DNA of 64,000 nt, taken from the NCBI RefSeq assembly GCF_037652055.1, contig NZ_JBBKAH010000001.1:66221-130220 (forward strand), read 5' to 3'. This document shows positions 4,161 through 51,513 of this stretch, piece after piece. Source of the DNA: Pelagibius sp. 7325. Lineage in GTDB: Bacteria; Pseudomonadota; Alphaproteobacteria; Kiloniellales; Kiloniellaceae. The position numbers were made by a program, and so were the translations under genes. Numbering within the stretch: position 1 is the stretch's first letter; every line of letters starts with the position of its first letter. The notes under the pieces were generated by a model. The model was not told the DNA's origin. It saw nothing but the letters and a program-made list of their open reading frames with translations, and made no database searches.

Positions 4161-4315
4161 CGCCTTCCAGCGTCCCGACCAGAAAAACCCCTCGCCTTCG
4201 GACGAGGGGTTTTTTCTTGCGCGCTTCGGGGGGCCGCATGTCTCGGAATTGCATTTGTCATCCGCGGCGGCCTGCCGGTAAGTGAACCTGCTGCCGCGCA
4301 AAAAAGGAGAGTGCC

Positions 4316-5854: not shown

Positions 5855-5933
5855 CCGGGCTGCCAACACGCACGCTGTCGTCCCGGTCCTTGTCCCTATG
5901 ATGGTCGCACATTTCTGTCGGCGACTGAGGCTG

Positions 5934-6150
5934 TCATCCCGGCCAAGCGAGCGGAGCGAGCGCGAGCCGGGATCTATGGTTGAGGTCGGGCTCCGGACAT
6001 AGCCATGGGCGTCTCAGTGGATGCCGCAGTCGAGCATCCCCAAGCACTGGGCAACGCGGAGCGGAAGAAATCTGGGGCGGGGCCGGCGCTCGTTCGATCC
6101 ATGGACCCCGGCTCGCGCTCGCTGTCGCTCGCTTGGCCGGGGTGACATCT
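5934..6150. repeat. MITE-like element with ~42-bp terminal inverted repeats (family C)
   Basis: gtcatcccggccaagcgagcggagcgagcgcgagccgggatc at 5934-5975 and its reverse complement at about 6104-6148. A second copy with the same termini lies at 63760-63967. Confidence 0.65.
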
Positions 6151-31113: not shown

Positions 31114-31429
31114 GGCGGCACTCACTCCTCGAGCCGCGCTGGTCCCCTCACGCGGCAATTTGTCGCAAAGAAGTGCCTAGAGCTAACACCAGAGCATTAA
31201 CAGAGATTGAGTCGGCCGCCAGGAAATGAATGGGAATAAGCGCGAAGCGCCGCTTCGGATTTCTTCTTATCTAATTCGGCACTTCTGCTTGATCGTCTTT
31301 AAACTGGAACGACAAAGCGTGTTGTTCTGGGGATGAGATTTGGACGCGCTGGAAGACGGGGCCGGGATCACCTTCCGTCGGATGATCCCGGCCCCGCTGG
31401 CAATCCGGTGAATCGCCGGCCGCTGGGGT

Positions 31430-32572
31430 TCACACCTTACGCGGCCGGATCCGCACCAGATCCTCGAGGACGCCGTCGAGGCCGTTGGCGACAACGACGT
31501 TACCCACCTTCTCGGACACCTTCTCCAGCGCCTCGAGCTCCTTCAGCCGCAGGAGGATCGGGTTGTCCTCCATCAGCTTGGCGGTGTTGAGGAGGGAGCG
31601 CGTCGCCGCGGTCTCCTCACGCCGCTTGATGACGTTGGCCTGCGCGGTCTTCTCCGCCTCGATGACCCGGTTCATCAGTTCCCGCACGTCACCGGGCAGG
31701 ATGATGTCCTTCACACCGACGGAGGGGACCTTGAGGCCCGCGTCGCCGAGCTTGGGCAGTACCAGCGCCTCGATCGCCTGGTTGATGCCCAGCTTGTCGC
31801 CGAGCACCTCCTCCAGCGTCCGCGTGCCGATGACCTGCCGCAGCGCGAACTGAAGCTCCTTGTAGAGGAAGTCCTTCAGGTCCGCGGTCAGCGTCACCGC
31901 CTTCACCGGATCGACGATCCGGAAGACGGCGGTGAGGTTGGCCCGGATGCCGATCCGGTCCTTGGTCAGCAGCTCCTGGCCGGTCACCTCCAGCGCCTGC
32001 AGACGCAGGTCGAAGGCCACCGCCTGGACCTTGCGCACCGCCTTCACGAAGGCATAGCGGCCCGGCTTCAGCTGCCGGTCCAGCACGCCGTCGACGTAGA
32101 GCAGAACGACGCTGTCGGCGGCCACCTCGACCACCGCCACCAGGTCACGCACGGCCGGGTCCTTCGCCGCCAGCCGCACCAGGGGCGCGACCAGCCGCTG
32201 CGGCACGGCGACGGCCTCGGTGGCATCCACCGTCTCCAGGCTCATCTCCCGCAGGTGCCGGGCGTAGAATGCCTTGCGCTGCGGCGCGACCACGTCGACC
32301 AGCTTGCCGTCGGCGTAGACGAAGCCGGCCTCGCCGTCACCCATGTCGGCGACGAGGAAGTAGGCCTCGACCACCCGCGGGTGGGTCAGGTACAGCGCGT
32401 CCAGCGCCACGTCCTTCACCGGCTGTGCCCGCAGGTCCAGCGTCACCACGCCGAAGCTGCCGCGGCCGCGCAGGATGCGGTGCACGCCCGGCTCCAGCAC
32501 CCGAACGAAAGCCCGATTGCGGTAGAGCAGACCGAGCTCGTAGTCGGCAATCTTCACGGTCCTGTAGAACAT
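31430..32572 (-). CDS. SPFH/band-7 (slipin-like) domain protein
   Basis: Starts MFYRTVKIADYE. The C-terminal half is a band-7 domain (TKDRIGIRANLTAVFRIVDPVKAV...ILPGDVRELMNRVIEAEKTAQANVIKRREETAA). Confidence 0.75.
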   Translation of the reverse strand: MFYRTVKIADYELGLLYRNRAFVRVLEPGVHRILRGRGSFGVVTLDLRAQPVKDVALDALYLTHPRVVEAYFLVADMGDGEAGFVYADGKLVDVVAPQRKAFYARHLREMSLETVDATEAVAVPQRLVAPLVRLAAKDPAVRDLVAVVEVAADSVVLLYVDGVLDRQLKPGRYAFVKAVRKVQAVAFDLRLQALEVTGQELLTKDRIGIRANLTAVFRIVDPVKAVTLTADLKDFLYKELQFALRQVIGTRTLEEVLGDKLGINQAIEALVLPKLGDAGLKVPSVGVKDIILPGDVRELMNRVIEAEKTAQANVIKRREETAATRSLLNTAKLMEDNPILLRLKELEALEKVSEKVGNVVVANGLDGVLEDLVRIRPRKV

Positions 32573-32943
32573 CGGACCAATCCTTTCTTCTTTTCTTCTT
32601 GTCTCTCTTTTCTCGTTGTCGCCCGCGCGAGAGGCCGGAACCGAAGAATGAATTTCGGGAATAAGGTTGAGGAACACCGGAAGAGCCCCGACAGCGTGGG
32701 CCGGGCGGCCCCGGCGCCCTCCCTCCACCGGCCGCGCGGGCCGCCAGGGTTCCGCCCGCAAGAAATCGCGGGACGGCGTGCCGGCGGTCCTTGCGGACAG
32801 CGTCGGAGGGCGCGGTGGAGACGCGCGGAAGCCCTTGCCGCCCGGCCCCTGCCCTTCCCCGCAACCTTTCGGCGGCGGTTCTGGACGAGGCCTGGCGCTC
32901 TTCCGGCATCCTTCGTCTTTGGATCAGCTTTACAGGCTGAGTT

Positions 32944-33016
32944 TCGCGATGGCGGGAGTTGAACCCGCGACAGCTGGAGTGAAAATCCAGTGCTCTAACC
33001 CACTGAGCTACATCCA
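32944..33016 (-). tRNA. tRNA-like gene, anticodon UUC (Glu by anticodon; Val-like body), acceptor stem only 4 bp
   Basis: Minus-strand read: D-arm GCTCAGTGGGTTAGAGC, anticodon arm CTGGA-TTTTCAC-TCCAG, T-arm GCGGGTTCAACTCCCGC. The 5' ATGGATG and 3' CATCGCG acceptor strands pair at only 4 positions, and there is no encoded CCA. Confidence 0.5.
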
Positions 33017-33092
33017 TGGCGCCGAACACGGGAATTGAACCCGTGACCCCCGGATCGACAATCCGGTGCTCTCACCACTGAGCTAGTTCGGC
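33017..33092 (-). tRNA. tRNA-Asp (anticodon GUC)
   Basis: Minus-strand read GCCGAACTAGCTCAGTGGTGAGAGCACCGGATTGTCGATCCGGGGGTCACGGGTTCAATTCCCGTGTTCGGCGCCA. Perfect 7-bp acceptor stem, GTC anticodon, encoded CCA. Confidence 0.85.
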
Positions 33093-33598
33093 CGCAAGGT
33101 ACTCATTGCCCGACACACGCAAGACGCATTACGAGCGTCCAGCGCGCCGGCCGGGTGCACGAACCCGGACCTGAAGGGCGGTCTGCCAAGTACCAAACGA
33201 ATGAAGGCTCCTGATCCTCTCGCGAGGGATGCCTATCGTCGTTTTCTCTGTGATGCTGTCATCTATTCCTGCCTCCGTTGTTCGCATTGCGCCGGGGCAG
33301 GAGTCGCGCGGAAACCGCGGGGCTCTAGACCCGGTGGGTGTGTGCCCCTTCCGGGCGCAAGTGACGATCCATAAAGGTCATCGGGTTTCCGTTTCGCGTT
33401 GACCGCGCGCGGGGTTGCGTGCGGGAGGCGGGATATAGTCCAGGTCCGATTCCGGAATCAAGAAAAACTTGCGGTTGATGGCAAGAAAGACCGATCGTGT
33501 AAAATCGGCGGGCAAGGCGATGACAAAAGTTGCGTGCGCGAAAGTGGGGCGCTACCTCTCTTTGCCGGAAAAGGGGCCGCAGGCAGGTGGGAGCGACG

Positions 33599-35230
33599 AT
33601 GGACGACGCACGTAACCCTTTCGAGACCGACCTGGCGCGCGGGCCGGCGAATCACGTGGCGCTCAGCCCCTTGAGCTTCCTGCCGCGCGCGGCAGCCGTC
33701 TACCCTGAGCGCTGCGCCGTCATTCACGGCGATCTCCGCTACACCTGGGCGCAGGTCTACGACCGCTGCCGCCGCCTCGCTTCGGCGCTCGCAAAGCGCG
33801 GCATCGGCAAGGGCGACACCGTCGCCGTCATGGCGCCCAACACGCCGCCCTGCCTGGAAGCGCACTTCGGCGTCGCCGCCGCCGGCGCGGTGCTGAACGC
33901 CCTCAACGTGCGCCTGGACGCCGCCACCATCGCCTTCACCCTGAACCACGGCGAAGCCAAGGTCCTCATCACCGACCGCGAGTTCTCCGGCGTCATCGAG
34001 GACGCGCTGAAAGAGGTCAGCCACGAAATCCTGGTCATCGACATCGACGATCCTCTCGGCGAAGGCGGCGCGCTTTTGGGCGAGACGGACTACGAGTCCT
34101 TTCTGGCGACCGGCGATCCCGAGTTTCCTTGGCGCCTGCCGGACGACGAATGGGAGTCGCTGTCGCTGCTCTACACCTCCGGCACAACCGGCAATCCCAA
34201 GGGCGTCGTCTACCATCACCGCGGCGCCTACCTGAACGCCATCGGCAACATGCAGGTCTGGGGCATGGGACCGCACCCGGTCTATCTCTGGACCCTGCCG
34301 ATGTTCCACTGCAACGGCTGGTGCTTTCCCTGGACGGTGACCGCGCTGGCCGGCACCCACGTCTGCCTGCGCCAGGTGCGCGCCAAGGCGATCTACGACG
34401 CCATCGCGGACCACGGCGTGACGCACCTCTGCGGCGCGCCCATCGTCATGCAGCTGCTGCTGGGCGCGACCGACGACGACAAGCGCGTCTTCGATCACCA
34501 GGTGAAGTTCATGACCGCGGCGGCGCCGCCGCCGGCCGCCGTGCTGGCCGCGATGCAGGACGCGGGCATCGAGGTGACTCACGTCTACGGCCTGACCGAG
34601 GTCTACGGCCCCGCCGTGGTCTGCGCCTGGCACCGTGAATGGGACGAGCTCGACATCGAGCTGCAGGCGGCGATGAAGTCGCGCCAGGGCGTGAACTATC
34701 CGGTGCTGGAAGGCCTGATGGTCGCCGATGCCGAGACGCTCGCCCCCGTGCCGCGTGACGGCGAGACCCTGGGCGAGGTCTTCATGCGCGGCAACGTGGT
34801 GATGAAGGGCTACCTGAAGAACGCGGCGGCGACCGAGAAGGCCTTCGCCGGCGGCTGGTTCCACACCGGCGACCTGGGCGTCTGGCATCCCGACGGCTAC
34901 ATCGAGCTGAAGGACCGCTCCAAGGACATCATCATCTCCGGCGGCGAGAACATCTCCTCCATCGAGATCGAGAACGCGCTCTACGGCCATCCGGCGGTGG
35001 CCGGTGCCGCCGTGGTCGCCAAGCCCGACGACAAGTGGGGCGAGACCCCTTGCGCCTTCGTCGAGCTGAAGCCGGGCGCAACAGCCGACGAGGCGGAGCT
35101 CATCGCCTTCTGCCGCCAGCGCCTCGCCTCCTTCAAGGCGCCCCGCAAGGTGGTCTTCGGCCCGCTGCCCAAGACCTCCACCGGCAAGATCCAGAAGTTC
35201 GTGCTGCGCAGCCAGGCCCGCGATCTTTAG
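33599..35230 (+). CDS. AMP-dependent acyl-CoA synthetase (medium-chain fatty-acid--CoA ligase-like)
   Basis: Starts MDDARNPFETDLARGPANHVALSP. AMP-binding motifs YTSGTTGNPKGV, YGLTE and SGGENISS. Confidence 0.85.
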   Translation: MDDARNPFETDLARGPANHVALSPLSFLPRAAAVYPERCAVIHGDLRYTWAQVYDRCRRLASALAKRGIGKGDTVAVMAPNTPPCLEAHFGVAAAGAVLNALNVRLDAATIAFTLNHGEAKVLITDREFSGVIEDALKEVSHEILVIDIDDPLGEGGALLGETDYESFLATGDPEFPWRLPDDEWESLSLLYTSGTTGNPKGVVYHHRGAYLNAIGNMQVWGMGPHPVYLWTLPMFHCNGWCFPWTVTALAGTHVCLRQVRAKAIYDAIADHGVTHLCGAPIVMQLLLGATDDDKRVFDHQVKFMTAAAPPPAAVLAAMQDAGIEVTHVYGLTEVYGPAVVCAWHREWDELDIELQAAMKSRQGVNYPVLEGLMVADAETLAPVPRDGETLGEVFMRGNVVMKGYLKNAAATEKAFAGGWFHTGDLGVWHPDGYIELKDRSKDIIISGGENISSIEIENALYGHPAVAGAAVVAKPDDKWGETPCAFVELKPGATADEAELIAFCRQRLASFKAPRKVVFGPLPKTSTGKIQKFVLRSQARDL

Positions 35231-35519
35231 AGGGGAGGGTTTAGCGGGGCGCCTTAGCTGATTCATCCTCTTCTTGGGAATTGCCCGGAGAGGTCCGCTG
35301 GTAACGGCATGTCCGACGTGGCGACTGGAATGTTGATGGGCGCCTTTGTTCCAGGTCCGAACATCACTCCTTTACCCCCTGTGGCGGGCAAACCTTGATC
35401 CGGCTGCGCCGGGCACACCCAACAAAGCTCCAAAGAAAAGCGTGCGCGTAGAAGACTGCCATTCTCCGAAGCCGATCCGGCGGAGCATATACCGCGCTTT
35501 TACAGATGTTTACGCGCGA

Positions 35520-36926
35520 CTATTTCGTTGAAGCCAGTGAACGCTCTATTTTATGAAGCCAGCCCTCGATCTCCTGAGTCGCATTCTCATGGGGCGACGC
35601 TTTGCGAATCTCATCAAGTTCAGAACGTGCAATGGCTACTGTCCGCCAAAGATTCTGGTCGGGGTTCTGACCCAGTAATCTGTCCCTTATTCCTTGTTTG
35701 ACCCGAGATCTATCGCTTTTCGAAAGACTCTCTGGAGCCATCAAGAAAATGAGCCTTTGTGCGATCTGCTGAAACCTTGGATCGTTGAACTTCCGAATGA
35801 GGCTTGCCCTTTGAGACCAAGGTGTTTCTGCAAAATTTCGCATCACCATTTCGTCATGTTTGCCTGGAAACCCTTCGAAAATCCTTTGCTCTAAAGCTCT
35901 TGGTTCCGGCCACTCTTCTCTCATTTTCGTTGCGAGCTTCACTAGGATGGCCCTTCGCTCGGGGGACGCGAGAAACGCAGCTTCTTCTGCCACTCTCTTG
36001 GATGGCACAATCCCAAGGTGCGCTCCGGCCTCATACTGGCTAGCAGCAATAGGAAACATGTTCTCCTTGAAACGTCGAATCCGAAATGTATGGCTCGTGA
36101 TGAGCATCTCCTGTGATGAGATCGTATTCGAGAAGAATCTTCGCCAGTCGGCCTCCAATTTGGCCACAAACTTGGCTGATTTCTGTTTGTTATCAGAACC
36201 GATTGGAAGCCCCCACCAACCAGGGCGGCCGTCCTTAGAAGGTTCTGCAAAAAAGATAGGCTTCCCTGTATTCACTAGCCGAGACGCAAATTCTCGATCG
36301 GAACAGTCCAAGAACAGGGCCCATAGCGCTTGGGACCTCGATGCGATTTTCTTGCAAATGTGAATGACGGCCAGCACATCTCCCAAGGCATCATGCGCAT
36401 CGGTGTGAGCGTATCCATTCAATGGGGCAAGCCGATCCAAACGAAATATAGGGCGACCAGATGCAATGTTAGGCACTACAAGTGCATGCGGTGAGATCCT
36501 CGACATAGCACGCACTAGAGGCAAAACGTCCGCCCTAGCGTTGCCATGAGTGACGGTTAGGTAAGGCGGGTTCAATGTTTGCCACAGCGCCCGTTGCAGA
36601 AGCGGCTCATCGAACTGGAATGAGTTGTACCCAATGAAGAGTGCAGGAGACCAGGATCGCAACCTCTCCTGTATACTCGCCATCATATCGGGAAATTGTG
36701 GCAGATTAGGGTTGTCAATTTGACTTGGCGAAATGCCGGTAACGATCATCGCACTGGGCGACGGGACTATCCATGGCAATCGTCGGCACCTGATATTTAT
36801 GCGATCAAGCTCTTTAAAGCTCTTGTCGGTCAATATGGCCGCAAACTGAATAATTTGATCAAACTCAACATTCGTTCCGGTTGTTTCGGTATCATAAAAT
36901 ACAAAATTTCGAGTATCGCCAGACAC
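35520..36926 (-). CDS. exodeoxyribonuclease I (SbcB)-like DEDDh 3'-5' exonuclease
   Basis: 468 aa. Exo I motif FYDTETTG, Exo II FIGYNSFQFDE, Exo III HTDAHDALGDV, plus a long C-terminal helical/SH3-like region collinear with E. coli ExoI. Low GC. Confidence 0.8.
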   Translation of the reverse strand: MSGDTRNFVFYDTETTGTNVEFDQIIQFAAILTDKSFKELDRINIRCRRLPWIVPSPSAMIVTGISPSQIDNPNLPQFPDMMASIQERLRSWSPALFIGYNSFQFDEPLLQRALWQTLNPPYLTVTHGNARADVLPLVRAMSRISPHALVVPNIASGRPIFRLDRLAPLNGYAHTDAHDALGDVLAVIHICKKIASRSQALWALFLDCSDREFASRLVNTGKPIFFAEPSKDGRPGWWGLPIGSDNKQKSAKFVAKLEADWRRFFSNTISSQEMLITSHTFRIRRFKENMFPIAASQYEAGAHLGIVPSKRVAEEAAFLASPERRAILVKLATKMREEWPEPRALEQRIFEGFPGKHDEMVMRNFAETPWSQRASLIRKFNDPRFQQIAQRLIFLMAPESLSKSDRSRVKQGIRDRLLGQNPDQNLWRTVAIARSELDEIRKASPHENATQEIEGWLHKIERSLASTK

Positions 36927-36936
36927 ATTATCGCTC

Positions 36937-38499
36937 TCAATAATATGAATATGGCGGAGGTTCGACGCCCTCTAGGCCAAATGTATAGTAGTATTTGCGC
37001 GCAGCTCGCCAGCCTCGAACAAAGCTAGGGAGACGCGGGTTCGGGCAATTTGGGCCACGCCATGCTCTCTTGTCGAGCCATTGGCCGAGGATGAGTTCCT
37101 CGGCCGAGGGCGAGAGGCCTTTTCGCTTGTACTTGATCTTCAGAATGCGCTGCCTCTTCCTCATTGCAAGCCGTAGGCTCACAAGCAACCAGCGATCCAA
37201 CTCCTTAAGCGTTTCAGCGTCTTCAAGAAGGGCGTAAAATCCCATCAAGCCCCGCATCTCGCGTAGCTTGTCGCCACCGTTGAGAAATTTAGTGATCTCT
37301 TCCTCTTCGAGTCCGCCATAGAGGTATCCTCGCAACTCAAGAACGAGTCCAAGAAGGTCCCAGTCGTATGGCTTGCGTACCGTGCGGCAGCGGTTCTTAT
37401 TGAATCCAAATTTTTTAGGATACTGAATCAGATAGACTTGTATAAGCCGTGACATTTTCGCGATTATACGTGCCCGGACATGATCGGGGATCTTAAGGCC
37501 GCCCTTGGTAAACCGATATCCAAGATAGTCGAATCCAGAATAACTTCTAATTTCCGCTTCATCTTTGCCAATGATAGCGATTCCGGGCGATTTCTTCTCA
37601 TTTATTATGAGGCCACTGTTCTGGCAGTGCTCGATAAACGTCTCTTCAAGTTCCTCCGCTTCAGCGTAGGTCGAGCAAAGGGCAACTACGTCGTCCGCGT
37701 ACCTGACAAAGCGTCCTGATTTCCGTTCCAAGGAACGATCAAGCTCGTGGTTGGCGAGATTCGCAAGAAGAAGTGAGACAGACGAGCCTTGCGGCGTGCC
37801 AATGTGCCGCCTCGCGAAATCTCCAATTAGATAGTCAGAAACGCTCGCAAACTGGTGTCGCATGAACTCCTTTAGTACGAAGCGCTCATGGGGCGTAACA
37901 GCTACAAGCTCTCTATCGTCAATACATCGCTCCATGTATCGAGTTGGGATAGTGTCGAAGTATTTTTGAAAATCGATCTGCACGGCAAACAATCTTTGAT
38001 CAGTCATGAACCCTTTCAGGGCCAAGATAGCATCAAACACATCACGTTCAGGGTGGTAAGCGTAAGAAAAGGGCGAAAGTCTCTTGATATTCCGATCCCT
38101 GGCCCTTCGAAGCACCACGTTTGCCAGCGCCGCATCTGGGATGGCAAAAGCCATAATCTCCCTGACTCCGCCTTGAGGCTTAGGAATCTGATACCTGACC
38201 GCCGGTACCGGCTCGTAGGTGGCATCAAGGACCTTTTTCCAAATCGTCTTTGCGATGATGTTAGCGTTTCTCGCGCAATGGGTAGGATCAAAGTGTCGAT
38301 GAACTTTCGCCAGCGAGGATGCTGGCTTCGGCAGTCCTGCTTTCAATCCAGTCCGCTTCTCAAATTTTTGCCGATCCTGACGCGCCTTTGCATCGCGGCC
38401 ATTGTTTCGCCGCCCTGCGCGCCGGCAAAGTCTTTTGATTTCCTGTTTTAGAGCTTTTTCCATGAGGGCGGCGAGGGGTCTTAGATCAAGGGTTTCCAC
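36937..38499 (-). CDS. reverse transcriptase (retron/group-II-intron-like RT fold, no maturase/endonuclease; unclassified defence-type RT)
   Basis: 520 aa. RT motifs are 0 VRYQIPKPQGGVREI, 1/2 AFAIPDAALANVVL, A FAVQIDFQKYFDTIP, B' IGTPQGSSVSLLLANL, C VRYADDVVAL and the thumb-like GFDYLGYRF. A ~150-aa helical C-terminal extension follows. Low GC, 10-bp gap to the ExoI-like gene. Confidence 0.85.
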   Translation of the reverse strand: METLDLRPLAALMEKALKQEIKRLCRRAGRRNNGRDAKARQDRQKFEKRTGLKAGLPKPASSLAKVHRHFDPTHCARNANIIAKTIWKKVLDATYEPVPAVRYQIPKPQGGVREIMAFAIPDAALANVVLRRARDRNIKRLSPFSYAYHPERDVFDAILALKGFMTDQRLFAVQIDFQKYFDTIPTRYMERCIDDRELVAVTPHERFVLKEFMRHQFASVSDYLIGDFARRHIGTPQGSSVSLLLANLANHELDRSLERKSGRFVRYADDVVALCSTYAEAEELEETFIEHCQNSGLIINEKKSPGIAIIGKDEAEIRSYSGFDYLGYRFTKGGLKIPDHVRARIIAKMSRLIQVYLIQYPKKFGFNKNRCRTVRKPYDWDLLGLVLELRGYLYGGLEEEEITKFLNGGDKLREMRGLMGFYALLEDAETLKELDRWLLVSLRLAMRKRQRILKIKYKRKGLSPSAEELILGQWLDKRAWRGPNCPNPRLPSFVRGWRAARKYYYTFGLEGVEPPPYSYY

Positions 38500-39456
38500 T
38501 GACGAAGCGTACCTAAGGGCTTATCGTCACCCCTCAGCGCATTGGTGCCTCGACACCAGGTAACTTGACCCCTCGCCTAGGCTACTACGCCATTCAAAAA
38601 AAGTGTCGAGATTAGCTGGCGACGTCAAGCTATTTGAGCGTTAACAACTGGAAGAAAAATGAAAAACTGCCATAGACCAGTCTGCTAGGCGAACAAAAGG
38701 TTAGCCAGAAAGGGGCCTGCATGCCATGACGAGCGTGTTGCCAAGTACATAGCAACGATCTTGGATCTCGTTACTTATCAGGCGGCAATCGCCTCGACCC
38801 GCGTTCTATACGCGCCCGCCTGCGGCTACACAATTCGACTACTCTGCTGGTCACAATCCGCGGAGCACCGGGCGTGACCGTGCTGCCCAAGTTGGTCGCA
38901 ACAACGACACCGATCGCCTTCTGTGAGATCGCTAAGCCAATTACGCAGTGCCAGATTGGCCTGATCAGCCGTTCTATGGATTTGCCCGGTCCAGCAATGC
39001 TCGCCTTTGCAGATTTCGCCCCATTCCACGTGCCAGCAAGGAAAGGAACCTGCTGACGGACTTCTAGCGGGAGTCGAGGCGAATGATCGCTGCTGCTGCC
39101 AACTGTTTCTCAGAACTCCAGTCTGAATTTGGCATGATCCGCTCCGGCTCAACTTGAGTCCCGTGGCCCGGCTGCGGGCAGACCGGCGTCCAGCCTTAGC
39201 GAGGACGCTTCCCCCAAATACAAAACCGCGCCCTTCGGTCCCTCTCGAACTGAGGGTGAAGGACGCGGTGGAAGCGTCGGATGCCTGCTTGTCTGTCCGT
39301 CGTGCCGGCGACTGCTTTTGTGGCTGCTTTTCGCTTCTGCTTTTGCTGCTCTCCTGAAGGGTTCCTTCCCTTCGGCACGGGCCTGCCTGGCTGCCAGATG
39401 ACCGGCGCCTGCGTATCAGGCGTTGCTTGACTGAGGCTTTGTGCTTGGGAGTTTGG

Positions 39457-39624
39457 CTAGCTGTCCATGTGTCCCGCGATTTCGTCCTTGATCCGGAGTT
39501 TTTCGCGTTTAAGTTCAATAATCCGGAGATCGTCGGGATGCGGCCTGTGTTCTTCCTCGTCGATTGCGTTTTCGATAGCCGCGTGCTTGGTTCGCAACGA
39601 CGCGATACGCTCATCTGCTGGCAT
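39457..39624 (-). CDS. DUF465 (YdcH-like) small protein
   Basis: MPADERIASLRTKHAAIENAIDEEEHRPHPDDLRIIELKREKLRIKDEIAG. A paralogue lies at 42432-42647. Confidence 0.6.
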   Translation of the reverse strand: MPADERIASLRTKHAAIENAIDEEEHRPHPDDLRIIELKREKLRIKDEIAGHMDS

Positions 39625-39740
39625 TCGGAACCTCCAATGAGCCTCTAGGTACCCGAATATGCTAGACCAGGGACCGTTCGATTGCAATTCGATGACGCCC
39701 CCGGCGCGTGGAAAAACTTAGGTTAAGTTAGGTTAAGTCT

Positions 39741-40337
39741 GTGACCCAAAATCAGCGGTTGATCGTCGGCATCAGCGGGGCAAGCGGCGTGCGCTATGGC
39801 GTGCGCCTGCTGGAGATGCTGCGCGATCTGCCGGTTGAGAGCCACCTGGTGATGTCCAAGGCGGCGGAGATCACCCTGGCCTACGAGACCGAGCTGAAAG
39901 TGGCCGAGGTGACGGCCCTGGCCGACAAGGTCTATCCCGCCGGCGACGTCGGCGCGGCGATCTCCAGCGGCTCCTTCCAGACCCTCGGCATGGTGATCGC
40001 CCCCTGCTCGGTGCGCTCTATGTCGGAAATCGCAACCGGCGTCACCTCGAACCTGCTGACCCGCGCCGCCGACGTGGTGCTGAAGGAACGCCGCCGCCTG
40101 GTCCTCATGCTGCGCGAGACGCCGCTGCACACCGGCCACCTGCGCTCCATGCTGGCGCTGTCGGAGATGGGCGCGATCATCGCGCCGCCGGTGCCCGGCT
40201 TCTACGCCAACCCGCAGTCGATCGACGACATGGTCGACCACACCCTCGGGCGCGTGCTCGACCTCTTCGGCCTCGACGCCGGCACGGTGAAACGCTGGGG
40301 CGAGGACGCCGGCAAGATCCGCCCCCTGCGGGGCTGA
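39741..40337 (+). CDS. ubiX: flavin prenyltransferase UbiX
   Basis: GTG start. Contains LIVGISGASG, the MSKAAE block and full-length collinearity with UbiX/Pad1. Confidence 0.9.
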   Translation: MTQNQRLIVGISGASGVRYGVRLLEMLRDLPVESHLVMSKAAEITLAYETELKVAEVTALADKVYPAGDVGAAISSGSFQTLGMVIAPCSVRSMSEIATGVTSNLLTRAADVVLKERRRLVLMLRETPLHTGHLRSMLALSEMGAIIAPPVPGFYANPQSIDDMVDHTLGRVLDLFGLDAGTVKRWGEDAGKIRPLRG

Positions 40338-40420
40338 AGGGCAAGGTCCGCCCCCTGCGCGGCTGAAGGGCAAGGTCCGTCCGCTGCGGAGTTAGCGCCG
40401 CACAGGGCCGGCCCGCCGCC

Positions 40421-40525
40421 CATCCTTCGAGACGGCTGCTGCGCAGCCTCCTCAGGATGAGGTCAATCATTTTATGTTCCACCCTCATCCTGAGGAGCCG
40501 CCGCAAGGCGGCGTCTCGAAGGATG
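40421..40525. repeat. complete palindromic family-A unit (MITE/REP-like): arm - 20-bp AT-rich core - inverted arm
   Basis: ccatccttcgagacg..ctcctcaggatgagg / tcaatcattttatgttccac / cctcatcctgaggag..cgtctcgaaggatgg. Confidence 0.75.
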
Positions 40526-40558
40526 GACCACAGGCAGGGTGCCTTTTCCCGCAGCCCG

Positions 40559-41131
40559 CTAGCCGAGGTCCTCGAGAATGCGGATGGCGTGGACCGGCGC
40601 CACTTGCGGGCAGGCGCCGTGCAGGATGGCGGCGAGGTCGGCGAAGTCGTCGTCGGTCGGCCGCGGCTTGAAGCGGGTGAGATAGAGATGGAGGTTGGCG
40701 GCGGCCTCCTCCGGCGCGCCTTCACCGGCCACGATTTCGATCTCCTGATAGAGCACCAGCTGCTCCAGCATCTCGGCCTGCAGCTCCAGCGACTTCACCT
40801 CTTCGCGGAAAGCCTCGCCGAGGTCGTCGGGCACGGCGGTCTGCTGCTTCAGCCAGCGCCGCGCGGCGCGCAGCGGTCCCACCACGTTGTCGTGCCAGGG
40901 CCGCGAGGCCGAGCGCAGCAGGCCGATGTCGCCGCCGTCGAACCGCCGTCCCTGCACGCCGGCCCAGGCGCAGAACAGCAGGAGGTTCACGTCCAGCCCG
41001 TGGCGGTCCTGCAGCTCCAGGCAGGCCTCGGCCACGCCGGGGCGTGCATAGAGGGCGCCGGAGAACTGCCAGAAGGGCGTCTCCTCCGGGGAAACGGAAC
41101 CGCTGCGTTCCCGATACCCATGCTTGGTCAT
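40559..41131 (-). CDS. TIGR02444/DUF2390-family hypothetical protein
   Basis: 190 aa. FWQFSGALYARPGVAEACLELQDRHGLDVNLLLFCAWAG matches this conserved proteobacterial family. Confidence 0.6.
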   Translation of the reverse strand: MTKHGYRERSGSVSPEETPFWQFSGALYARPGVAEACLELQDRHGLDVNLLLFCAWAGVQGRRFDGGDIGLLRSASRPWHDNVVGPLRAARRWLKQQTAVPDDLGEAFREEVKSLELQAEMLEQLVLYQEIEIVAGEGAPEEAAANLHLYLTRFKPRPTDDDFADLAAILHGACPQVAPVHAIRILEDLG

Positions 41132-42249
41132 GGCCGGAATTCTCCGAGATAGATACCAAGCCCCTGGGCAGTGTGCACCAAGGGCCCGTCCAGATCGACG
41201 GCTTTGTAGCCGGCGATGGCCTCGCTGATCGGGATGTCGATGACCTGGCGCCCGCTCCAGGCGACCATGCGGTCGAAGTGCCCCTCGGCAATGAGGTCGA
41301 CGGCGCGCACGCCGAAGATCGAGGCCATGAGGCGGTCGCGGTCGGTCGGCAGGCCGCCGCGCTGCAGATGGCCCAGGACGGTGACCCGGGTCTCCGAGCC
41401 GGTCTCCTCGGCGATGCGCGCGGCCAGGTAGTGGCCGACGCCGCCGTAGGTCTGGGCGCCGCTGGCCTGGGTCTGCCTGACCGCCTCGCCGGCCTCGGTC
41501 TTGACCGCCTCGGCCACCACCACCAGGGCGAAGTTGCGCCCCTGGGCCTTCAGCGCCTCGATCTTGGCGGCGATGCCCGCCAGGCTGTAGGGGATCTCGG
41601 GGATCAGGATCACGTCGGCGCCGCCGGCGATGCCGGCCGCGATGGCGATGTGGCCGGCGTCGCGGCCCATGACCTCCAGCACCATCACCCGCGAATGGCT
41701 GGCCGCCGTCGGCTGCAGCTGGTCGAGGGCGTCGGTGGCGACCTTCACCGCCGTGGCATAGCCGATCGAGAGCTCGGTGTGGCCGAGGTCGTTGTCGATG
41801 GTCTTGGGGATGGTCACCAGGTCGATGCCGCCCTGCTGCGCGAGGCGCCGGAGGATCGCCTGGCTGCCGTCGCCGCCGATGCCGATGAGGGCGTCCAGTT
41901 CGAGCTGGCGGTAGCCCTCGATGACCTCGGCGGAGCGGTCGCGGCGGCTGCCGTCGGGCATCGGGTAGTCGAAGGGGTCACCCTTGTTGGTGGTGCCCAG
42001 GATGGTGCCGCCGCGGCGCAGCAAGGTGCCATCCAGCAGGTCGAGGCTGAGCGCCATGGTCTCCGCCTCCACGGGGCGGGCCAGCAGTCCGGCGGTGCCG
42101 TTGCGGATGCCGACCACCTGCCAGCCGTAGTGGCCGGTGGCGCGCAGCACCACCGCCCGCAACGCGGCGTTGAGACCGGCGCAATCGCCGCCACTGGTGA
42201 GAACCCCGATCCGCTTCGGACTTGCCATCTGGCCTGTTTTCCCCGTCAC
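41128..42249 (-). CDS. pfkA: 6-phosphofructokinase (ATP/PPi-dependent PFK family)
   Basis: IGVLTSGGDCAGLNA, IGGDGS, TIPKTIDNDL and MGR motifs. Probable start at MASPKRIG, about 42228. Confidence 0.85.
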   Translation of the reverse strand: MTGKTGQMASPKRIGVLTSGGDCAGLNAALRAVVLRATGHYGWQVVGIRNGTAGLLARPVEAETMALSLDLLDGTLLRRGGTILGTTNKGDPFDYPMPDGSRRDRSAEVIEGYRQLELDALIGIGGDGSQAILRRLAQQGGIDLVTIPKTIDNDLGHTELSIGYATAVKVATDALDQLQPTAASHSRVMVLEVMGRDAGHIAIAAGIAGGADVILIPEIPYSLAGIAAKIEALKAQGRNFALVVVAEAVKTEAGEAVRQTQASGAQTYGGVGHYLAARIAEETGSETRVTVLGHLQRGGLPTDRDRLMASIFGVRAVDLIAEGHFDRMVAWSGRQVIDIPISEAIAGYKAVDLDGPLVHTAQGLGIYLGEFRP

Positions 42250-42431
42250 CCCTGCCGCCTTCGCAACGAAAAACGCTTTTCGGGGCAGACTTTAGCAGCT
42301 TATGGGACTAGAAATCTCGGGTTGCGGGCAGTCTGCGCGCAATCGGGGCGGCCAGCCCGCAAGACTCCCGCCCCAAGACTCCCAAGGGGATCGCCAAGCG
42401 GGTATACTCCCGGGCGCGTCCCACACCTCGC

Positions 42432-42647
42432 ATGAGCGCAATGGATCAACCGGATCTCGACCAGCTGCGTCGCAAACTCGCCGAGCTCAAATCGGAGCAC
42501 CGCGACCTCGACGACGTCATCAGCCATCTCGCGGAAACCCGCCCCTTCGACCAGCTTCAGCTGCAGCGCCTGAAGAAGCGCAAGCTGGCGCTGAAGGACC
42601 AGATCCTGAAGCTGGAAGACGCCATGCTGCCGGATATCATCGCTTAG
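42432..42647 (+). CDS. DUF465 (YdcH-like) small protein
   Basis: LRRKLAELKSEHRDLDDVISHL...LQRLKKRKLALKDQILKLE. Confidence 0.7.
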   Translation: MSAMDQPDLDQLRRKLAELKSEHRDLDDVISHLAETRPFDQLQLQRLKKRKLALKDQILKLEDAMLPDIIA

Positions 42648-42694
42648 CCGGATCGCTTAGCAGGCTGCTGAGAAAGGGCGCCCGACCTGCAACA

Positions 42695-42797
42695 CATCCT
42701 TCGAGACGGCGCTGACGCGCCTCCTCAGGATGAGGTAAGACTATGAAATGATTGACCTCATGCTGAGGAGCACGCGAGCGCGTGCGTCTCGAAGCAC
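42695..42797. repeat. complete palindromic family-A unit (MITE/REP-like)
   Basis: catccttcgagacg..ctcctcaggatgagg / taagactatgaaatgattga / cctcatgctgaggag..cgtctcgaagcacg. Confidence 0.75.
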
Positions 42798-42853
42798 GAG
42801 GTCAATCAGGCCGTCAGGACTTTTTCAGCAACCGATCAGGGCGGAGTCGCCGG

Positions 42854-43609
42854 TCAGCTTTCGCCGCGGCCGCTGCGTTTGTGCTCGTACATCGCCCGGT
42901 CGGCGGCGTTGAGGGCGTCGTCCGCGCGCTGGCCGCTGGAAAGGGTGTGGACTCCGTAGGCCACCGAGATGCGCAGGCGGCGGCCGTCCCACTCGACCTC
43001 CTCGGCGGCGATCGCCCCGGCCAGCCGGGCGGCCTTGGCGGCCGCCGGCTCCAGGGCCGACTGCGCCAGGATGACGCCGAACTCGTCGCCGCCCAGGCGG
43101 CCGACCACGTCGGACGCGCGGGTGTCGCGCAGCAGCACCTCGCAGACCCGCTTCAGCACCGCGTCGCCGGCGGCATGGCCGTGGGTGTCGTTCACGACCT
43201 TGAGGTCGTTCACGTCGAAATAGAGCACCGCGCCGGCGGCACCGTAGCGTTCCTCGAAGGCGGCCATGCGGCTCAGCTCGCGCACGAAGGCGCGGCGGTT
43301 CAGCACCGGCGCCAGGGTGTCCTGGTCGGCCAGCTGCTCCAGGTAGCCGACGCGCTGGCGCGACTCCTCGAGCTCCTGGCGCAGGGAGTAGACCTCGGCC
43401 ATCAGCTGCTGCAGGGCCTTGCGGACCTTGGGCGTCAGCTCGGTCTCGGGGATCCCCATGACAGAGGCCACGTCCTCGGGCTGCGGCACCGGCCGGGCCT
43501 GCTCGGCTGCGCGGTAGGCCGCCCCGGCGCGCGCGGCGGTGCCGGGCGCCACCCCGGGCGCCACCCCGGGCGTCAGGGGGGCCGATCCGCCTGTCTTGCT
43601 TACCTTCAT
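42854..43609 (-). CDS. GGDEF-domain diguanylate cyclase
   Basis: RAFVRELSRM...LYFDVNDLKVVNDTHGHAAGDAVL...RLGGDEFGVIL. The N-terminus carries a PGVA-type tandem repeat. The start is uncertain (ORF extends to 43897). Confidence 0.75.
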   Translation of the reverse strand: MKVSKTGGSAPLTPGVAPGVAPGTAARAGAAYRAAEQARPVPQPEDVASVMGIPETELTPKVRKALQQLMAEVYSLRQELEESRQRVGYLEQLADQDTLAPVLNRRAFVRELSRMAAFEERYGAAGAVLYFDVNDLKVVNDTHGHAAGDAVLKRVCEVLLRDTRASDVVGRLGGDEFGVILAQSALEPAAAKAARLAGAIAAEEVEWDGRRLRISVAYGVHTLSSGQRADDALNAADRAMYEHKRSGRGES

Positions 43610-43974
43610 CCTGGCTTCCAACGATTTCCCGGCCGTCCCGGGAGTGTTAACGGTCCGTTCACCTAAGCGTCCTGGCGAGCCGATTACGGCCGCAAGTCTA
43701 GCACGAAGCTTAGGGGACGAGGGTAAAGGCTTCCTTGCGGGCCGGGAGTGGCGCCGCGGCGACCCTTGCGGGGCAAAACCCCGGAAAACGGGCCTTTCCA
43801 CCCCACGCGGAGGCGGGTTGCGCGACGGGTTGCGCGGCTGCCGGCTTGCCCGGATAATGCGCGCCTTTTCCCGGGCTGCCGCCCGACGGCAAGGCAACGG
43901 GCGGCAGAGCCAAAGGTTTCAGCAAAGCTTTCAGCAGAAGTTTCAGCAGACGTTTCAGGGGGGACGCGAACAGC

Positions 43975-44472
43975 ATGGCGGAGCAGCAGCCGCAGGTCGG
44001 AATCATCATGGGCAGCCAGTCGGACTGGCCGACCATGAAGCACGCCGCCGAGGTGTTGGAGCGGCTGGGCGTCGCCCACGAGGTCCGCATCGTTTCCGCC
44101 CACCGCACCCCGCAGCGGCTCTACGACTACGCCACCACGGCACGCGAGCGCGGCCTGAAGGTCGTCATCGCCGGCGCCGGCGGGGCCGCCCATCTGCCCG
44201 GCATGGCCGCCGCCATGACGCCGCTGCCGGTCTTCGGCGTGCCGATCGAAAGCAAGGCGCTGAAGGGCCAGGACTCGCTGCTCTCCATCGTGCAGATGCC
44301 CGGCGGCATTCCGGTCGGCACCCTGGCCATCGGCAAAGCCGGCGCCATCAACGCCGGCCTGCTGGCCGCCGCCGTCATCGCCCTCAGCGATCCCCAGGTC
44401 GCCACGGCGCTGGACGACTGGCGCCGGCAGCAGACGGCCGCCGTCGCCGAACGGCCCCAGGACGAAGCCTGA
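43975..44472 (+). CDS. purE: 5-(carboxyamino)imidazole ribonucleotide mutase
   Basis: [26 protein letters not shown]...[23 protein letters not shown]. Confidence 0.9.
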
Positions 44473-44514
44473 ACGTCTTTTCCGCCCCCCGCGTCTCCCG
44501 AAGGAAACCCGATC

Positions 44515-45621
44515 TTGCCCGAATTGACCGGCCCCCTTGACCGCCCCTTGAGCCCAGGCGCCACCATCGGCATTCTCGGCAGCGGCCAGCTGGGCCGCAT
44601 GGCGGCGCTGGCCGCCGCGCGCCTCGGCTACCGCTGCCACGTCTACGGGCCGGAAGCGGACGCCCCGGCGAACCAGGTGTGCGACGCCGCGACGGTGGCA
44701 GCCTACGACGACGTCGCGGCCCTGACCCGCTTCGCCGCGGCGGTCGACGTAGTGACCTTCGAATTCGAGAACATCCCGCTGGCGACCGTCGAGGTACTGG
44801 AGAAGCTGGCGCCGCTGCGGCCCGGCGCCGCCGTGCTGTCGATCTGCCAGCACCGCCTGCGCGAGAAGGACTTCTGCAACGGCGTTTCGGTGCCGACCAC
44901 CGCCTACCGCGCCGCCGAGGACGTCGGCGGCCTGCGCCGGGCGGTCGAAGCGATCGGCACGCCCTGCATCCTGAAGAGTGCCGAGCTGGGCTATGACGGC
45001 AAAGGCCAGGTGCGCATCACGGCAGAGAGCGATCTGGCGGAAGCCTGGGCCGCGATGCGCGGCCACGCGGCGGACGCCGTCGGCATCGTCGAGGCCATCG
45101 TCCCGTTCCGCATGGAGATCTCGGCGATCGTCGCGCGTTCGGCCGACGGCAGCGTGCGCACCTATGTGCCGGTGGAGAATCGTCACAAGAACCACATCCT
45201 GGACGAGACCATCGCGCCGGCCAACCTGCCGGACGAACTCTCCGACCGCGCCGAGGCCATCGCCCGCCACCTGGCCAAGGAGATGGGACTGATCGGCCTG
45301 CTGGCGGTCGAAATGTTCGTCACCCACGACAACAAGATCCTGGTCAACGAACTGGCGCCACGGCCGCACAACTCCGGACACTGGACCCTCGACGCCTGCG
45401 TCACCTCGCAGTTCGAACAGTTCATCCGCGCCGTCGCCGGCCTGCCGCTGGGCTCGACCGAGCGCCTCTGCGACGCGGTGATGAAGAACCTTCTGGGCGA
45501 CGAGGTGAACGACTGGCTGCGGATCCTCTCCGAGCCCGGCAACAAGCTGCATCTCTACGGCAAGGCCGAAGCGCGGCCGGGCCGCAAGATGGGCCACGTC
45601 ACCCGCCTGATCCGGCGCTGA
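44515..45621 (+). CDS. purK: 5-(carboxyamino)imidazole ribonucleotide synthase
   Basis: ATP-grasp fold immediately downstream of purE (IGILGSGQLGRM, C-terminal GHVT). Confidence 0.9.
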   Translation: MPELTGPLDRPLSPGATIGILGSGQLGRMAALAAARLGYRCHVYGPEADAPANQVCDAATVAAYDDVAALTRFAAAVDVVTFEFENIPLATVEVLEKLAPLRPGAAVLSICQHRLREKDFCNGVSVPTTAYRAAEDVGGLRRAVEAIGTPCILKSAELGYDGKGQVRITAESDLAEAWAAMRGHAADAVGIVEAIVPFRMEISAIVARSADGSVRTYVPVENRHKNHILDETIAPANLPDELSDRAEAIARHLAKEMGLIGLLAVEMFVTHDNKILVNELAPRPHNSGHWTLDACVTSQFEQFIRAVAGLPLGSTERLCDAVMKNLLGDEVNDWLRILSEPGNKLHLYGKAEARPGRKMGHVTRLIRR

Positions 45622-51169: not shown

Positions 51170-51513
51170 CGGATTCACCGGGTTCGGGAGCCGGATCGAG
51201 GTGCGTGTGATGCCGAGCCTCCGGATGGAAGGTTGAGGGCGCCAGCCCCTGCAGCGGAGTCGCCGCATGAACCGCCGCGGAAGTTGGAGCCCGACCGCAT
51301 CCGGCCCCGGCACCACACGCCGGGAGCAAGCTGACAGCGGAATGTTTCAGGCTGTTGTCGCGGCAAGCGGAAAAGTGTTTTCTTTGTTTCTATCCGGGCG
51401 CTTCCGCCTGGTTTTCCGTTCGGCAGCCGGACAAAGAGAAAGGGGGGCCGAGCCCCCCTTTTCACACACGTCGCGCCGCACCGGTGAACGCCGGGGCAAA
51501 GGTCGTCAAGGCC

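What the first reader, a model, noticed from the sequence alone, without database searches (positions are those of the whole stretch)
38460..39456. ~1 kb ORF-poor region upstream of the RT with short inverted repeats - candidate ncRNA/template
Between the RT start (38499) and the next convincing gene (39457) there is no credible ORF; the only long one is an S/R-rich low-complexity frame. An 11-bp inverted repeat, ggcgaggggtc (38469-38479) / gacccctcgcc (38567-38577), spans the RT start in the manner of retron a1/a2 repeats. Further small palindromes (ggtgcctcgacacc, agctggcgacgtcaagct) follow. Defence RTs of the retron, DRT2, DRT3 and DRT9 types all depend on an adjacent structured ncRNA.
Basis: inference. 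Interest (0 to 1): 0.65.

Follow-up and report, generated by a model that had tools for sequence, protein, structure and literature searches.

The report
Template RNA of a DRT9-like defence
The 130 bases just upstream of the reverse transcriptase encode a conserved, folded non-coding RNA of a DRT9-type anti-phage system, but it lacks the poly-U template that defines known DRT9 RNAs and the operon carries its own exonuclease I; the other ~860 bases of the flagged region are unrelated.

Summary

- **RT family:** the RT (real start ATG 38463, not GTG 38499) is a UG28/DRT9-family enzyme. An exonuclease I-like gene follows it.
- **Extent of the element:** similarity to the closest homologous loci exists only at 38465-38593. 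A conserved -35 box (TTGAC) lies 35-38 nt upstream in 46 of 54 distinct loci.
the 11-bp inverted repeat is the closing stem of this RNA. It is 100% paired in 16 relatives, and 8 of its 11 pairs show compensatory changes. The "ggtgcctcgacacc" palindrome is an internal hairpin that also covaries. The third palindrome overlaps the promoter.
- **Wider support:** a covariance model built here finds the element directly upstream of the RT in all 5 independent test loci, and in about 50 loci in all.
- **Comparison with DRT9:** the topology matches published DRT9 ncRNAs, with the single-stranded loop just 5' of the closing stem. The loop reads GAAACCCUUGAUCUAA with no U-tract, there is no terminator hairpin, and the model does not detect canonical DRT9 RNAs.
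- **Verdict:** a new variant of a known kind.
- **Not tested:** what DNA the system makes. This needs experiment.

The parts
Evidence: The -10 is weak, and the consensus scan found no promoter.
38464..38593 (-). ncRNA of the UG28/DRT9-like module; structured core 38470-38592, with the predicted 5' end near 38591-38593
   Evidence: This is the only stretch upstream of the RT that is conserved with the closest loci. CM R1 scores 95 bits, E=7e-30. Fold z-score is -3.3. Covariation is shown.
38580..38591 (-). SL1: 5' hairpin GGC-GUAGUA-GCC
   Evidence: 99-100% paired. GC/AU/GU variants occur (GGC/GCC, AGC/GCU, GGU/ACC).
38567..38577 (-).
   Evidence: The 11 bp pair with 38470-38480. Pairing is 100% in 16 sequences, and 8 of 11 pairs carry changes on both sides. 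In 47 sequences pairing is 97.8%. Window G:C versus L063 A:U is a compensatory pair even at 92% RT identity.
38543..38558 (-).
   Evidence: 96-97% paired. 5 of 6 pairs or 6 of 6 pairs carry compensatory changes.
38513..38537 (-). P4 hairpin (CUGAGGG ... CCCUUAG), variable in length between loci
   Evidence: It is part of the minimum-energy fold. A hairpin of different sequence sits at the same place in relatives. Only 62% of cells pair in the MAFFT register, so support is weak.
38497..38509 (-). P5 hairpin (CGCU-UCGUC-AGUG) immediately 5' of the loop
   Evidence: Variants CGCU/AGCG, CACU/AGUG, CGCC/GGCG, CACA/UGUG and UGCG/CGCA occur in relatives. 73-85% of cells pair.
38481..38496 (-). Single-stranded candidate template loop GAAACCCUUGAUCUAA, between P5 and the 3' strand of P2
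   Evidence: CCCU is invariant in the subclade. The loop is identical in L063 and L067 and near-identical in L069, although stems differ. It holds the same position as the U-tract loop of canonical DRT9 RNA (PMC12483538). A templating role is inferred.
38470..38480 (-).
36937..38463 (-). UG28/DRT9-family reverse transcriptase, 508 aa, with YADD motif and C-terminal ...PPPYSYY
   Evidence: PADLOC Drt9 E=6e-156 over 487 of 488 profile positions. Solved DRT9 RT 9ioa/9nlv matches at E=9e-57. Y505 and Y508 are invariant in 25 homologues.
35520..36926 (-). Exonuclease I (SbcB)-like DEDDh 3'-5' exonuclease; it starts 10 nt after the RT stop
   Evidence: PADLOC RTasSbcB E=7e-125. Pfam RNase_T plus Exonuc_X-T_C. 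E. coli ExoI 1fxx matches at E=5e-27 with catalytic motifs kept. The same gene follows the RT in L063-L070, L072, L039, L001, L006 and L022.

Best explanation
Window 38464-38593 (minus strand) encodes the non-coding RNA partner of a compact defence operon: promoter, ncRNA, UG28/DRT9-family RT, exonuclease I-like gene.

**Anatomy of the RNA.**
- It is transcribed from a sigma-70-type promoter (-35 TTGACG at 38628-38623) and starts at about 38592.
- The closing stem encloses three hairpins and a 16-nt single-stranded loop, GAAACCCUUGAUCUAA. The loop lies directly 5' of the 3' strand of the stem.

**Proposed mechanism (inferred from solved DRT9 and DRT10 systems).**
1. The RT binds the RNA as a scaffold.
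2. It primes on its C-terminal tyrosines.
3. It copies a few loop nucleotides over and over, making long repetitive single-stranded DNA attached to the protein.
4. The co-encoded exonuclease I removes this DNA from its 3' end in uninfected cells.
5. Phage factors that protect 3' ends or block the nuclease let the DNA accumulate, and the infected cell dies.

**Shown here:** RNA conservation, covariation, promoter conservation, the protein families and the gene order.

**Inferred:** RT binding, templating, the nature of the product and the regulation.
For: **RT family.**
- PADLOC Drt9 E=6e-156.
- The solved DRT9 RT matches at E=9e-57.
- The YADD motif and invariant C-terminal tyrosines are present. 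In SenDRT9, Y496 and Y498 prime synthesis (PMC12483538).

**The RNA is a conserved element.**
- Conservation with the nearest loci is confined to 38465-38593.
- RNAalifold finds three helices; 14 of the 18 predicted pairs show compensatory changes.
- On 47 sequences, 96% of cells pair against 32-62% when partners are slid. 145 cells carry double changes against 10-31 in the slid controls, and 0 of 500 shuffles reach the observed values.
- The subclade structure of 31 pairs gives 88.5% paired against 36-50% slid.
- CM R1 finds the element abutting the RT start in 5 IMG/VR loci gathered only after the model was built. It also finds it in further loci outside the training set.

**Promoter.** The -35 TTGAC is conserved at a fixed distance in 46 of 54 loci.

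**Resemblance to canonical DRT9 RNA.**
- The topology is the same: 5' hairpin, long-range stem, loop 5' of the 3' arm (PMC12483538, PMC12489045).
- The relative L001 shares UUACUUU with the canonical template loop AACUUACUUUUACUU.

**Exonuclease.** Host ExoI is the known silencer of DRT9 and DRT10 products (PMC12483538; bioRxiv 10.64898/2026.04.29.721553). Here an ExoI-like gene is fused into the operon.
Against: - No transcript data are available.
- CM R1 does not detect canonical DRT9 ncRNAs even with filters off at E<=10, so homology of the RNAs is not demonstrated.
- The loop has no U-run of 3 or more. Nor does the rest of the RNA. Deleting a single U abolishes SenDRT9 defence (PMC12483538).
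- There is no terminator between the RNA and the RT, and no Shine-Dalgarno sequence before the ATG. The structure could therefore act, wholly or partly, as a cis-acting leader.
- Helix P4 is poorly supported in the alignment used.
Confidence: 0.8

Rival explanations
1. It is a canonical DRT9. The RNA templates poly-dA as in SenDRT9, using the two uridines of CCCUUG (or U108/U110) by slippage. The loop differences are neutral drift.
For: The RT is UG28 by profile. The RNA topology is shared. Some relatives keep UUU or longer runs: L001 and L023 have UUU, and L026 and L034 have U4-5. ExoI degrades poly-dA (PMC12483538).
Against: The window loop has no run longer than UU. Most of the clade conserves ACUCU or ACUUA rather than a U-tract. 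In SenDRT9, removing one U of the U4 abolishes defence, and the U-tract is described as universal (PMC12483538). The window loop sequence is kept unchanged in L063 and L067 and near-unchanged in L069, at RT identities of 75-92%, which suggests that the specific sequence matters.
Confidence: 0.25
2. It is a cis-acting 5' leader only. The structure controls translation or stability of the RT-ExoI mRNA and is not used as scaffold or template.
For: There is no terminator between the RNA and the RT. The ATG lies 6 nt after a GC-rich 11-bp stem, and no Shine-Dalgarno sequence is present. Covariation proves structure, not a role in trans.
Against: All characterised class 2 UG RTs of this lineage (DRT2, DRT9, DRT10) need their upstream RNA as scaffold and template (PMC12483538, PMC12489045, bioRxiv 10.1101/2025.10.16.682844). 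The conserved single-stranded loop with invariant CCCU sits at the template position. The larger sister clade keeps the same RNA but has a normal spacer and SD before the ATG, so the RNA is conserved independently of the translation-start context.
Confidence: 0.08
3. It is a retron-like msr/msd with a1/a2 repeats flanking the template.
For: An 11-bp inverted repeat lies next to an RT gene.
Against: Drt9 is by far the best profile for the RT; the strongest named retron-type model among the 25 shown scores 40 bits against 518. The repeat closes a 123-nt multi-hairpin RNA, and with the corrected start it does not span the RT start. There is no Rfam retron match. The C-terminal tyrosines indicate protein priming.
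Confidence: 0.02
4. The whole ~1 kb (38460-39456) is one long functional non-coding region or hides a further gene of the system.
For: The intergenic gap is unusually long and has no credible ORF.
Against: Nothing beyond 38593 is conserved in loci with 84-92% identical RTs. Upstream neighbours differ in every related locus. tblastx and plasmid blastn find nothing. Fold z-scores are near 0 for 38580-39180. The distal part holds a terminator-like hairpin that belongs with the DUF465 gene.
Confidence: 0.03

Closest known systems
DRT9 (UG28 RT plus ncRNA; SenDRT9 and the E. coli system; PDB 9NLV, 9IOA)
   Same: - The RT matches the Drt9 profile over its full length and the solved RT over residues 55-453.
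- It has the YADD motif and C-terminal tyrosines.
- The ncRNA lies immediately upstream on the same strand.
- The RNA has a 5' hairpin, a long-range stem enclosing hairpins, and a single-stranded loop just 5' of the stem's 3' strand.
- There is a functional link to exonuclease I.
   Different: - The RNA is about 125-130 nt rather than 188 nt.
- It has no poly-U tract (GAAACCCUUGAUCUAA against AACUUACUUUUACUU).
- It has no 3' terminator hairpin SL6.
- The covariance model built here and the canonical RNAs do not find each other.
- The window RT scores 518 bits on the Drt9 profile, against 707 for a canonical-type RT.
- ExoI is encoded in the operon rather than borrowed from the host.
DRT10 (UG17 RT plus ncRNA plus SLATT)
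   Same: - It is a class 2 UG RT with a structured ncRNA.
- A hairpin lies directly 5' of the template loop.
- The loop is heteropolymeric with an A-B-A' pattern. DRT10 has ACUUAUUACU; here CU-UGAU-CU, and relatives have CUUACUUA.
- SbcB restrains the product (bioRxiv 10.64898/2026.04.29.721553; 10.1101/2025.10.16.682844).
   Different: - The RT matches RT_UG17 at only 76 bits, against 518 for Drt9.
- There is no SLATT gene.
- The RNA lies directly before the RT rather than before a SLATT gene.
- DRT10 primes on serine, whereas this RT ends in tyrosines.
Retron msr/msd
   Same: A structured RNA lies upstream of an RT, and an inverted repeat is present.
   Different: - The RT family differs.
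- The repeat is an internal stem of a small scaffold RNA.
- Protein priming is expected rather than 2'-5' branching.
- No covariance-model match was found.

Membership tests
DRT9 / UG28 system | RT belongs to the UG28 clade | tested here: met
   PADLOC Drt9 E=6e-156, 518 bits, profile positions 1-487 of 488; the next specific UG model scores 76 bits. PDB DRT9 RT matches at E=9e-57.
DRT9 / UG28 system | [quoted passage not shown] | tested here: met
   The conserved 129-nt block abuts the ATG. Covariation is shown. CM hits abut the RT start in about 50 loci.
DRT9 / UG28 system | ncRNA homologous to the published DRT9 ncRNA (188 nt, SL1-SL6) | tested here: inconclusive
   The topology is alike, and a relative shares UUACUUU. 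However, CM R1 gives no hit on three canonical-type loci with filters off at E<=10. No Rfam family exists to test against. The SL6 terminator is absent.
DRT9 / UG28 system | Conserved poly-uridine (U4) template tract in the loop | tested here: not met
   The loop is GAAACCCUUGAUCUAA, and the 129-nt RNA has no U-run of 3 or more. The T7 run at 38596-38602 lies upstream of the conserved block, in the promoter, and is absent from the closest relatives.
DRT9 / UG28 system | C-terminal tyrosines for protein priming, and a YADD active site | tested here: met
   The protein ends ...PPPYSYY. Y505 and Y508 are invariant in 25 homologues. RYADDVV is present.
DRT9 / UG28 system | Product is protein-linked poly-dA | not testable with these tools
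   This needs cDNA sequencing or Southern blotting.
DRT10 / UG17 system | UG17 RT with an adjacent SLATT effector | tested here: not met
   RT_UG17 scores only 76 bits. The neighbouring genes are ExoI-like and DUF465, and there is no SLATT.
Retron | Retron-clade RT with msr/msd bounded by a1/a2 repeats | tested here: not met
   Drt9 is by far the best profile; the strongest named retron-type model among the 25 shown scores 40 bits against 518. There is no Rfam match. The repeat is the closing stem of a multi-hairpin RNA.

The most novel reading that the evidence does not exclude
This mainly alphaproteobacterial branch of UG28 may have replaced the poly-U template with a short heteropolymeric one, so that it writes tandem-repeat DNA rather than poly-dA.

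- In this window, CU-UGAU-CU would give a 6-nt repeat (AGATCA)n, by the A-B-A' realignment logic shown for DRT10.
- In the larger sister clade, the conserved ACUCU would give (AG)n.
- The window's subclade has in addition captured an exonuclease I as a built-in antidote. That would make the module independent of host SbcB.
Probability: 0.35. Interest if true: 0.75.

Novelty: new variant of a known kind. Interest (0 to 1): 0.55.

Why it matters
DRT9 is currently described as an RT that makes DNA homopolymers from a "universally conserved" poly-U template and is held in check by the host's exonuclease I.

This locus, and about 50 relatives collected here, have the same kind of RT and the same RNA topology. 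They differ in three ways:
- the template loop is conserved but is not poly-U;
- the RNA family is invisible to models of the canonical one, and the reverse also holds;
- in the window's subclade, the exonuclease is written into the operon.

If the loop is the template, the family bridges DRT9 homopolymer synthesis and DRT10 telomerase-like repeat synthesis, and the product can be predicted from sequence.

The cis-encoded ExoI is independent genomic support for the silencer model. It also suggests how such toxic-DNA systems could move into hosts that lack sbcB.

In practical terms, the covariance model lets these ncRNAs be annotated.

Tried and rejected
- **Rfam.** An E-value scan of 30000-45000 and of five related loci found nothing at the element.
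- **The T7 run as poly-U template.** The run at 38596-38602 was my first candidate. I rejected it because it lies outside the conserved block, between the -35 box and the RNA start, and is absent from the closest relatives.
- **Published ncRNA sequence.** I looked for a SenDRT9 ncRNA sequence in the paper supplements and found none. I used canonical-type loci from IMG/VR and a Bacillus plasmid instead.
- **A gene or pseudogene in 38594-39456.**
  - ORFs of 35 aa or more show nothing protein-like.
  - The 262-aa ORF has no Pfam or PADLOC match.
  - tblastx against all loci found nothing.
  - blastn against plasmids found nothing.
- **Island-end direct repeats.** No convincing pair was found.
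- **Source genome.** An exact look-up of the neighbouring UbiX-like protein, meant to find the source genome or an empty site, is not on record.
- **Second copy of the element.** A CM hit at 51409-51521(-) scores 9 bits, E=0.23, and has no RT-sized ORF beside it, so I treat it as chance.
- **A conserved partner gene downstream of the RT in the larger sister clade.** None was found.
- **Literature.** I found no description of UG28 with a cis-encoded SbcB or a non-U template in the library. PADLOC does carry an "RTasSbcB" model.
Full report
**1. What is at the coordinates**

The minus strand carries, from right to left:
- a small DUF465 gene (39457..39687);
- about 860 nt without a credible gene;
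- the element described below;
- an RT gene (ORF 36937..38499);
- a 468-aa gene (35520..36926) that starts 10 nt after the RT stop.

The block from about 35400 to about 39700 has about 50-58% G+C, against 65-72% in the flanks.

The RT matches the PADLOC Drt9 (UG28) profile at E=6e-156 over 487 of 488 profile positions. The downstream protein matches PADLOC "RTasSbcB" at E=7e-125 and the Pfam families RNase_T and Exonuc_X-T_C.

The RT profile match starts at residue 13 of the ORF. Homologues are mostly about 505-520 aa and begin M-[EQ]-x-A-[LI]-K. The start is therefore ATG 38463, not GTG 38499.

The RT also matches the solved DRT9 RT (9IOA, 9NLV) at E=9e-57. It has the YADD motif and ends in ...PPPYSYY, with Y505 and Y508 invariant in 25 homologues. 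In SenDRT9 the C-terminal Y496 and Y498 prime DNA synthesis (PMC12483538).

**2. Checking the observation**

- The two smaller palindromes exist at 38544-38557 and 38614-38631.
- A perfect repeat of this length occurs in 3.3% of shuffles of the region, so it is not compelling alone.
- No ORF in the region has a family match or any similarity to related loci.

**3. How much of the region belongs to the RT**

I collected 58 genome loci, 12 metagenome contigs carrying the closest RTs, and 7 viral contigs.

In blastn against the nearest loci (RT 92% and 84% identical), the upstream 1.3 kb matches only at 38465-38593, at 94.6% and 80.6% identity. Nothing beyond that point matches.

The genes upstream of the RT differ in every locus. 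They include an integrase remnant, a peptidase M78, a TetR-family gene, pPIWI_RE, CTP synthase and others.

A fold z-score scan shows structure only at two places:
- the proximal element (z = -3.6, minus strand);
- a hairpin at 39204-39278. On the minus strand this looks like an intrinsic terminator followed by UUUUGUAUUU, about 180 nt after the DUF465 stop.

**4. The element is a conserved, structured RNA with its own promoter**

- **Conserved block.** An alignment of the upstream regions shows a conserved block that abuts the RT start in nearly all loci.
- **Promoter.** TTGAC lies 35-38 nt upstream of the block in 46 of 54 distinct loci, within otherwise unconserved sequence. This places a sigma-70-type -35 box at 38628-38623 and the RNA 5' end near 38592. 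The -10 is weak.
- **Third palindrome and T7 run.** The third palindrome is this promoter DNA. The T7 run at 38596-38602 lies between the promoter and the RNA start and is absent from the closest relatives, so it is not a template.
- **RNAalifold.** On 39 sequences it finds a 5' hairpin, a long-range stem and an internal hairpin. 14 of the 18 predicted pairs show compensatory changes.
- **Covariance model.** R1 finds the element directly upstream of the RT in about 50 loci. These include loci not used to build it and 5 independent IMG/VR loci (35-138 bits).
- **Pair counts on 47 sequences.** 96% of cells pair, against 32-62% when partners are slid. 145 cells have changes on both sides against 10-31, and no shuffle of 500 reaches the observed values.
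- **Subclade structure.** In the window's subclade, a five-helix structure of 31 pairs is 88.5% paired against 36-50% slid. The 11-bp stem is 100% paired, and 8 of its 11 pairs have compensatory changes. Even the closest relative differs by a G:C to A:U double change.

Helix P5 is moderately supported, and P4 is weakly supported in the alignment used.

**5. Comparison with known DRT ncRNAs**

Published DRT9 RNAs have these properties (PMC12483538, PMC12489045):
- they are 188 nt long with six stem-loops;
- they have an irregular loop holding a U4 tract that templates poly-dA;
- deleting one U abolishes defence;
- host ExoI degrades the product in uninfected cells.

I recovered canonical-type loci whose RTs are 79%, 57% and 59% identical to the solved enzyme. 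Their RNAs read ...GAUAACUUACUUUUACUUGGG... followed by a terminator hairpin. The fold is a 5' hairpin and a long-range stem enclosing hairpins, with the U-tract loop just 5' of the stem's 3' strand.

The window RNA has the same layout. It differs in these respects:
- it is about 125-130 nt long;
- it lacks the terminator hairpin;
- its loop reads GAAACCCUUGAUCUAA, and no U-run of 3 or more occurs anywhere in the RNA.

Loop sequences in relatives vary:

| Loci | Loop sequence |
|---|---|
| L001 | CCCUUACUUUAAA (shares UUACUUU with the canonical loop) |
| several loci | CCCUUACUUA |
| the larger sister clade | CCCU[GU]ACUCU |
| 2 of about 45 loci | U4 or longer |

The window's loop is unchanged in L063 and L067 and near-unchanged in L069, relatives whose RTs are 75-92% identical. 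R1 does not detect the canonical RNAs even with filters off, and Rfam has no family for either.

By profile the RT is UG28 but divergent: 518 bits against 707 for a canonical-type RT.

**6. The exonuclease**

The ExoI-like gene follows the RT in the window, in all six fetched RTs that are 75% or more identical, and in several more distant loci (L070, L072, L039, L001, L006, L022). It is absent from L071, L073, L074 and most of the sister clade.

It aligns with E. coli ExoI at E=5e-27 and keeps the DEDDh motifs. SbcB is the known host silencer of DRT9 and DRT10 products, so the likeliest role is a built-in silencer. This is an inference. I found no paper describing the arrangement, although PADLOC holds a model for it.

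**7. Mechanism and confidence**

- That 38464-38593 is the RT's structured RNA partner: about 0.8.
- That the loop at 38481-38496 is the template: plausible by position and conservation, but untested.
- What is made is open.
  - The canonical reading is poly-dA from UU.
  - The alternative is a heteropolymeric repeat. DRT10 uses ACUUAUUACU with flanking repeats, and 2-nt flanks suffice in some DRT10 systems (bioRxiv 10.64898/2026.04.29.721553; 10.1101/2025.10.16.682844). CU-UGAU-CU would then give (AGATCA)n.

**8. Verdict**

The ncRNA is real but is about 130 nt, not 1 kb. It is not retron-like. It is a new variant of the DRT9 kind rather than a canonical member, because the defining poly-U tract was tested and is not there.

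Noticed in passing
window 35520-36926 (-): An exonuclease I (SbcB)-like gene is joined to the RT with a 10-nt gap. It recurs after the RT in the window's subclade but not in most other UG28 loci. Host SbcB is the published silencer of DRT9 and DRT10, so this looks like a captured antidote.
   Followed up: partly
window 38463 vs 38499 (-): The longest-ORF start (GTG 38499) lies inside the ncRNA. Profile and homologue lengths place the RT start at ATG 38463. That ATG is 6 nt after a GC-rich 11-bp stem and has no Shine-Dalgarno sequence, unlike the sister clade, which has a 25-35-nt spacer with AGGA/GGGA.
   Followed up: partly
window 39204-39278 (-), and 39312-39350: A strong hairpin (-45 kcal/mol, z = -4.9) is followed by UUUUGUAUUU on the minus strand, about 180 nt after the DUF465 stop. 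It is probably that gene's terminator. Just upstream of it are three AAAAGCAG-like repeats. Neither is related to the RT system.
   Followed up: partly
loci L002-L037 and others (about 30 loci): The larger sister clade of UG28 loci, mostly alphaproteobacterial, conserves CCCU[GU]ACUCU in the loop instead of a U-tract and has no conserved partner gene. This contradicts the "universally conserved poly-U" description of DRT9 ncRNAs.
   Followed up: partly
L062 (Thioclava plasmid NZ_CP149928.1, locus 3830-5960): A UG28-profile RT (484 bits) is directly followed by a SLATT gene. The ncRNA model built here does not hit its upstream region, so this may be a third RNA type in the family.
   Followed up: no
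L063/L064, L065, L070, L071, L075-L081: The ncRNA-RT(-ExoI) module sits in varied mobile or defence contexts: next to relaxase/NikA, an integrase remnant plus AlwI-type restriction genes, pPIWI_RE, ThsB-TIR, and on IMG/VR viral contigs.
   Followed up: no
window 32948-33092 (-): Two adjacent tRNA genes (Rfam 73.5 and 58.8 bits) lie 2.4 kb from the low-GC block. An acyl-CoA synthetase-like gene lies between them and the block. No flanking direct repeats that would mark island ends were found.
   Followed up: partly
window 51409-51521 (-): A weak hit of the ncRNA model (9.4 bits, E=0.23) with no RT-sized ORF beside it. I treat it as chance.
   Followed up: yes
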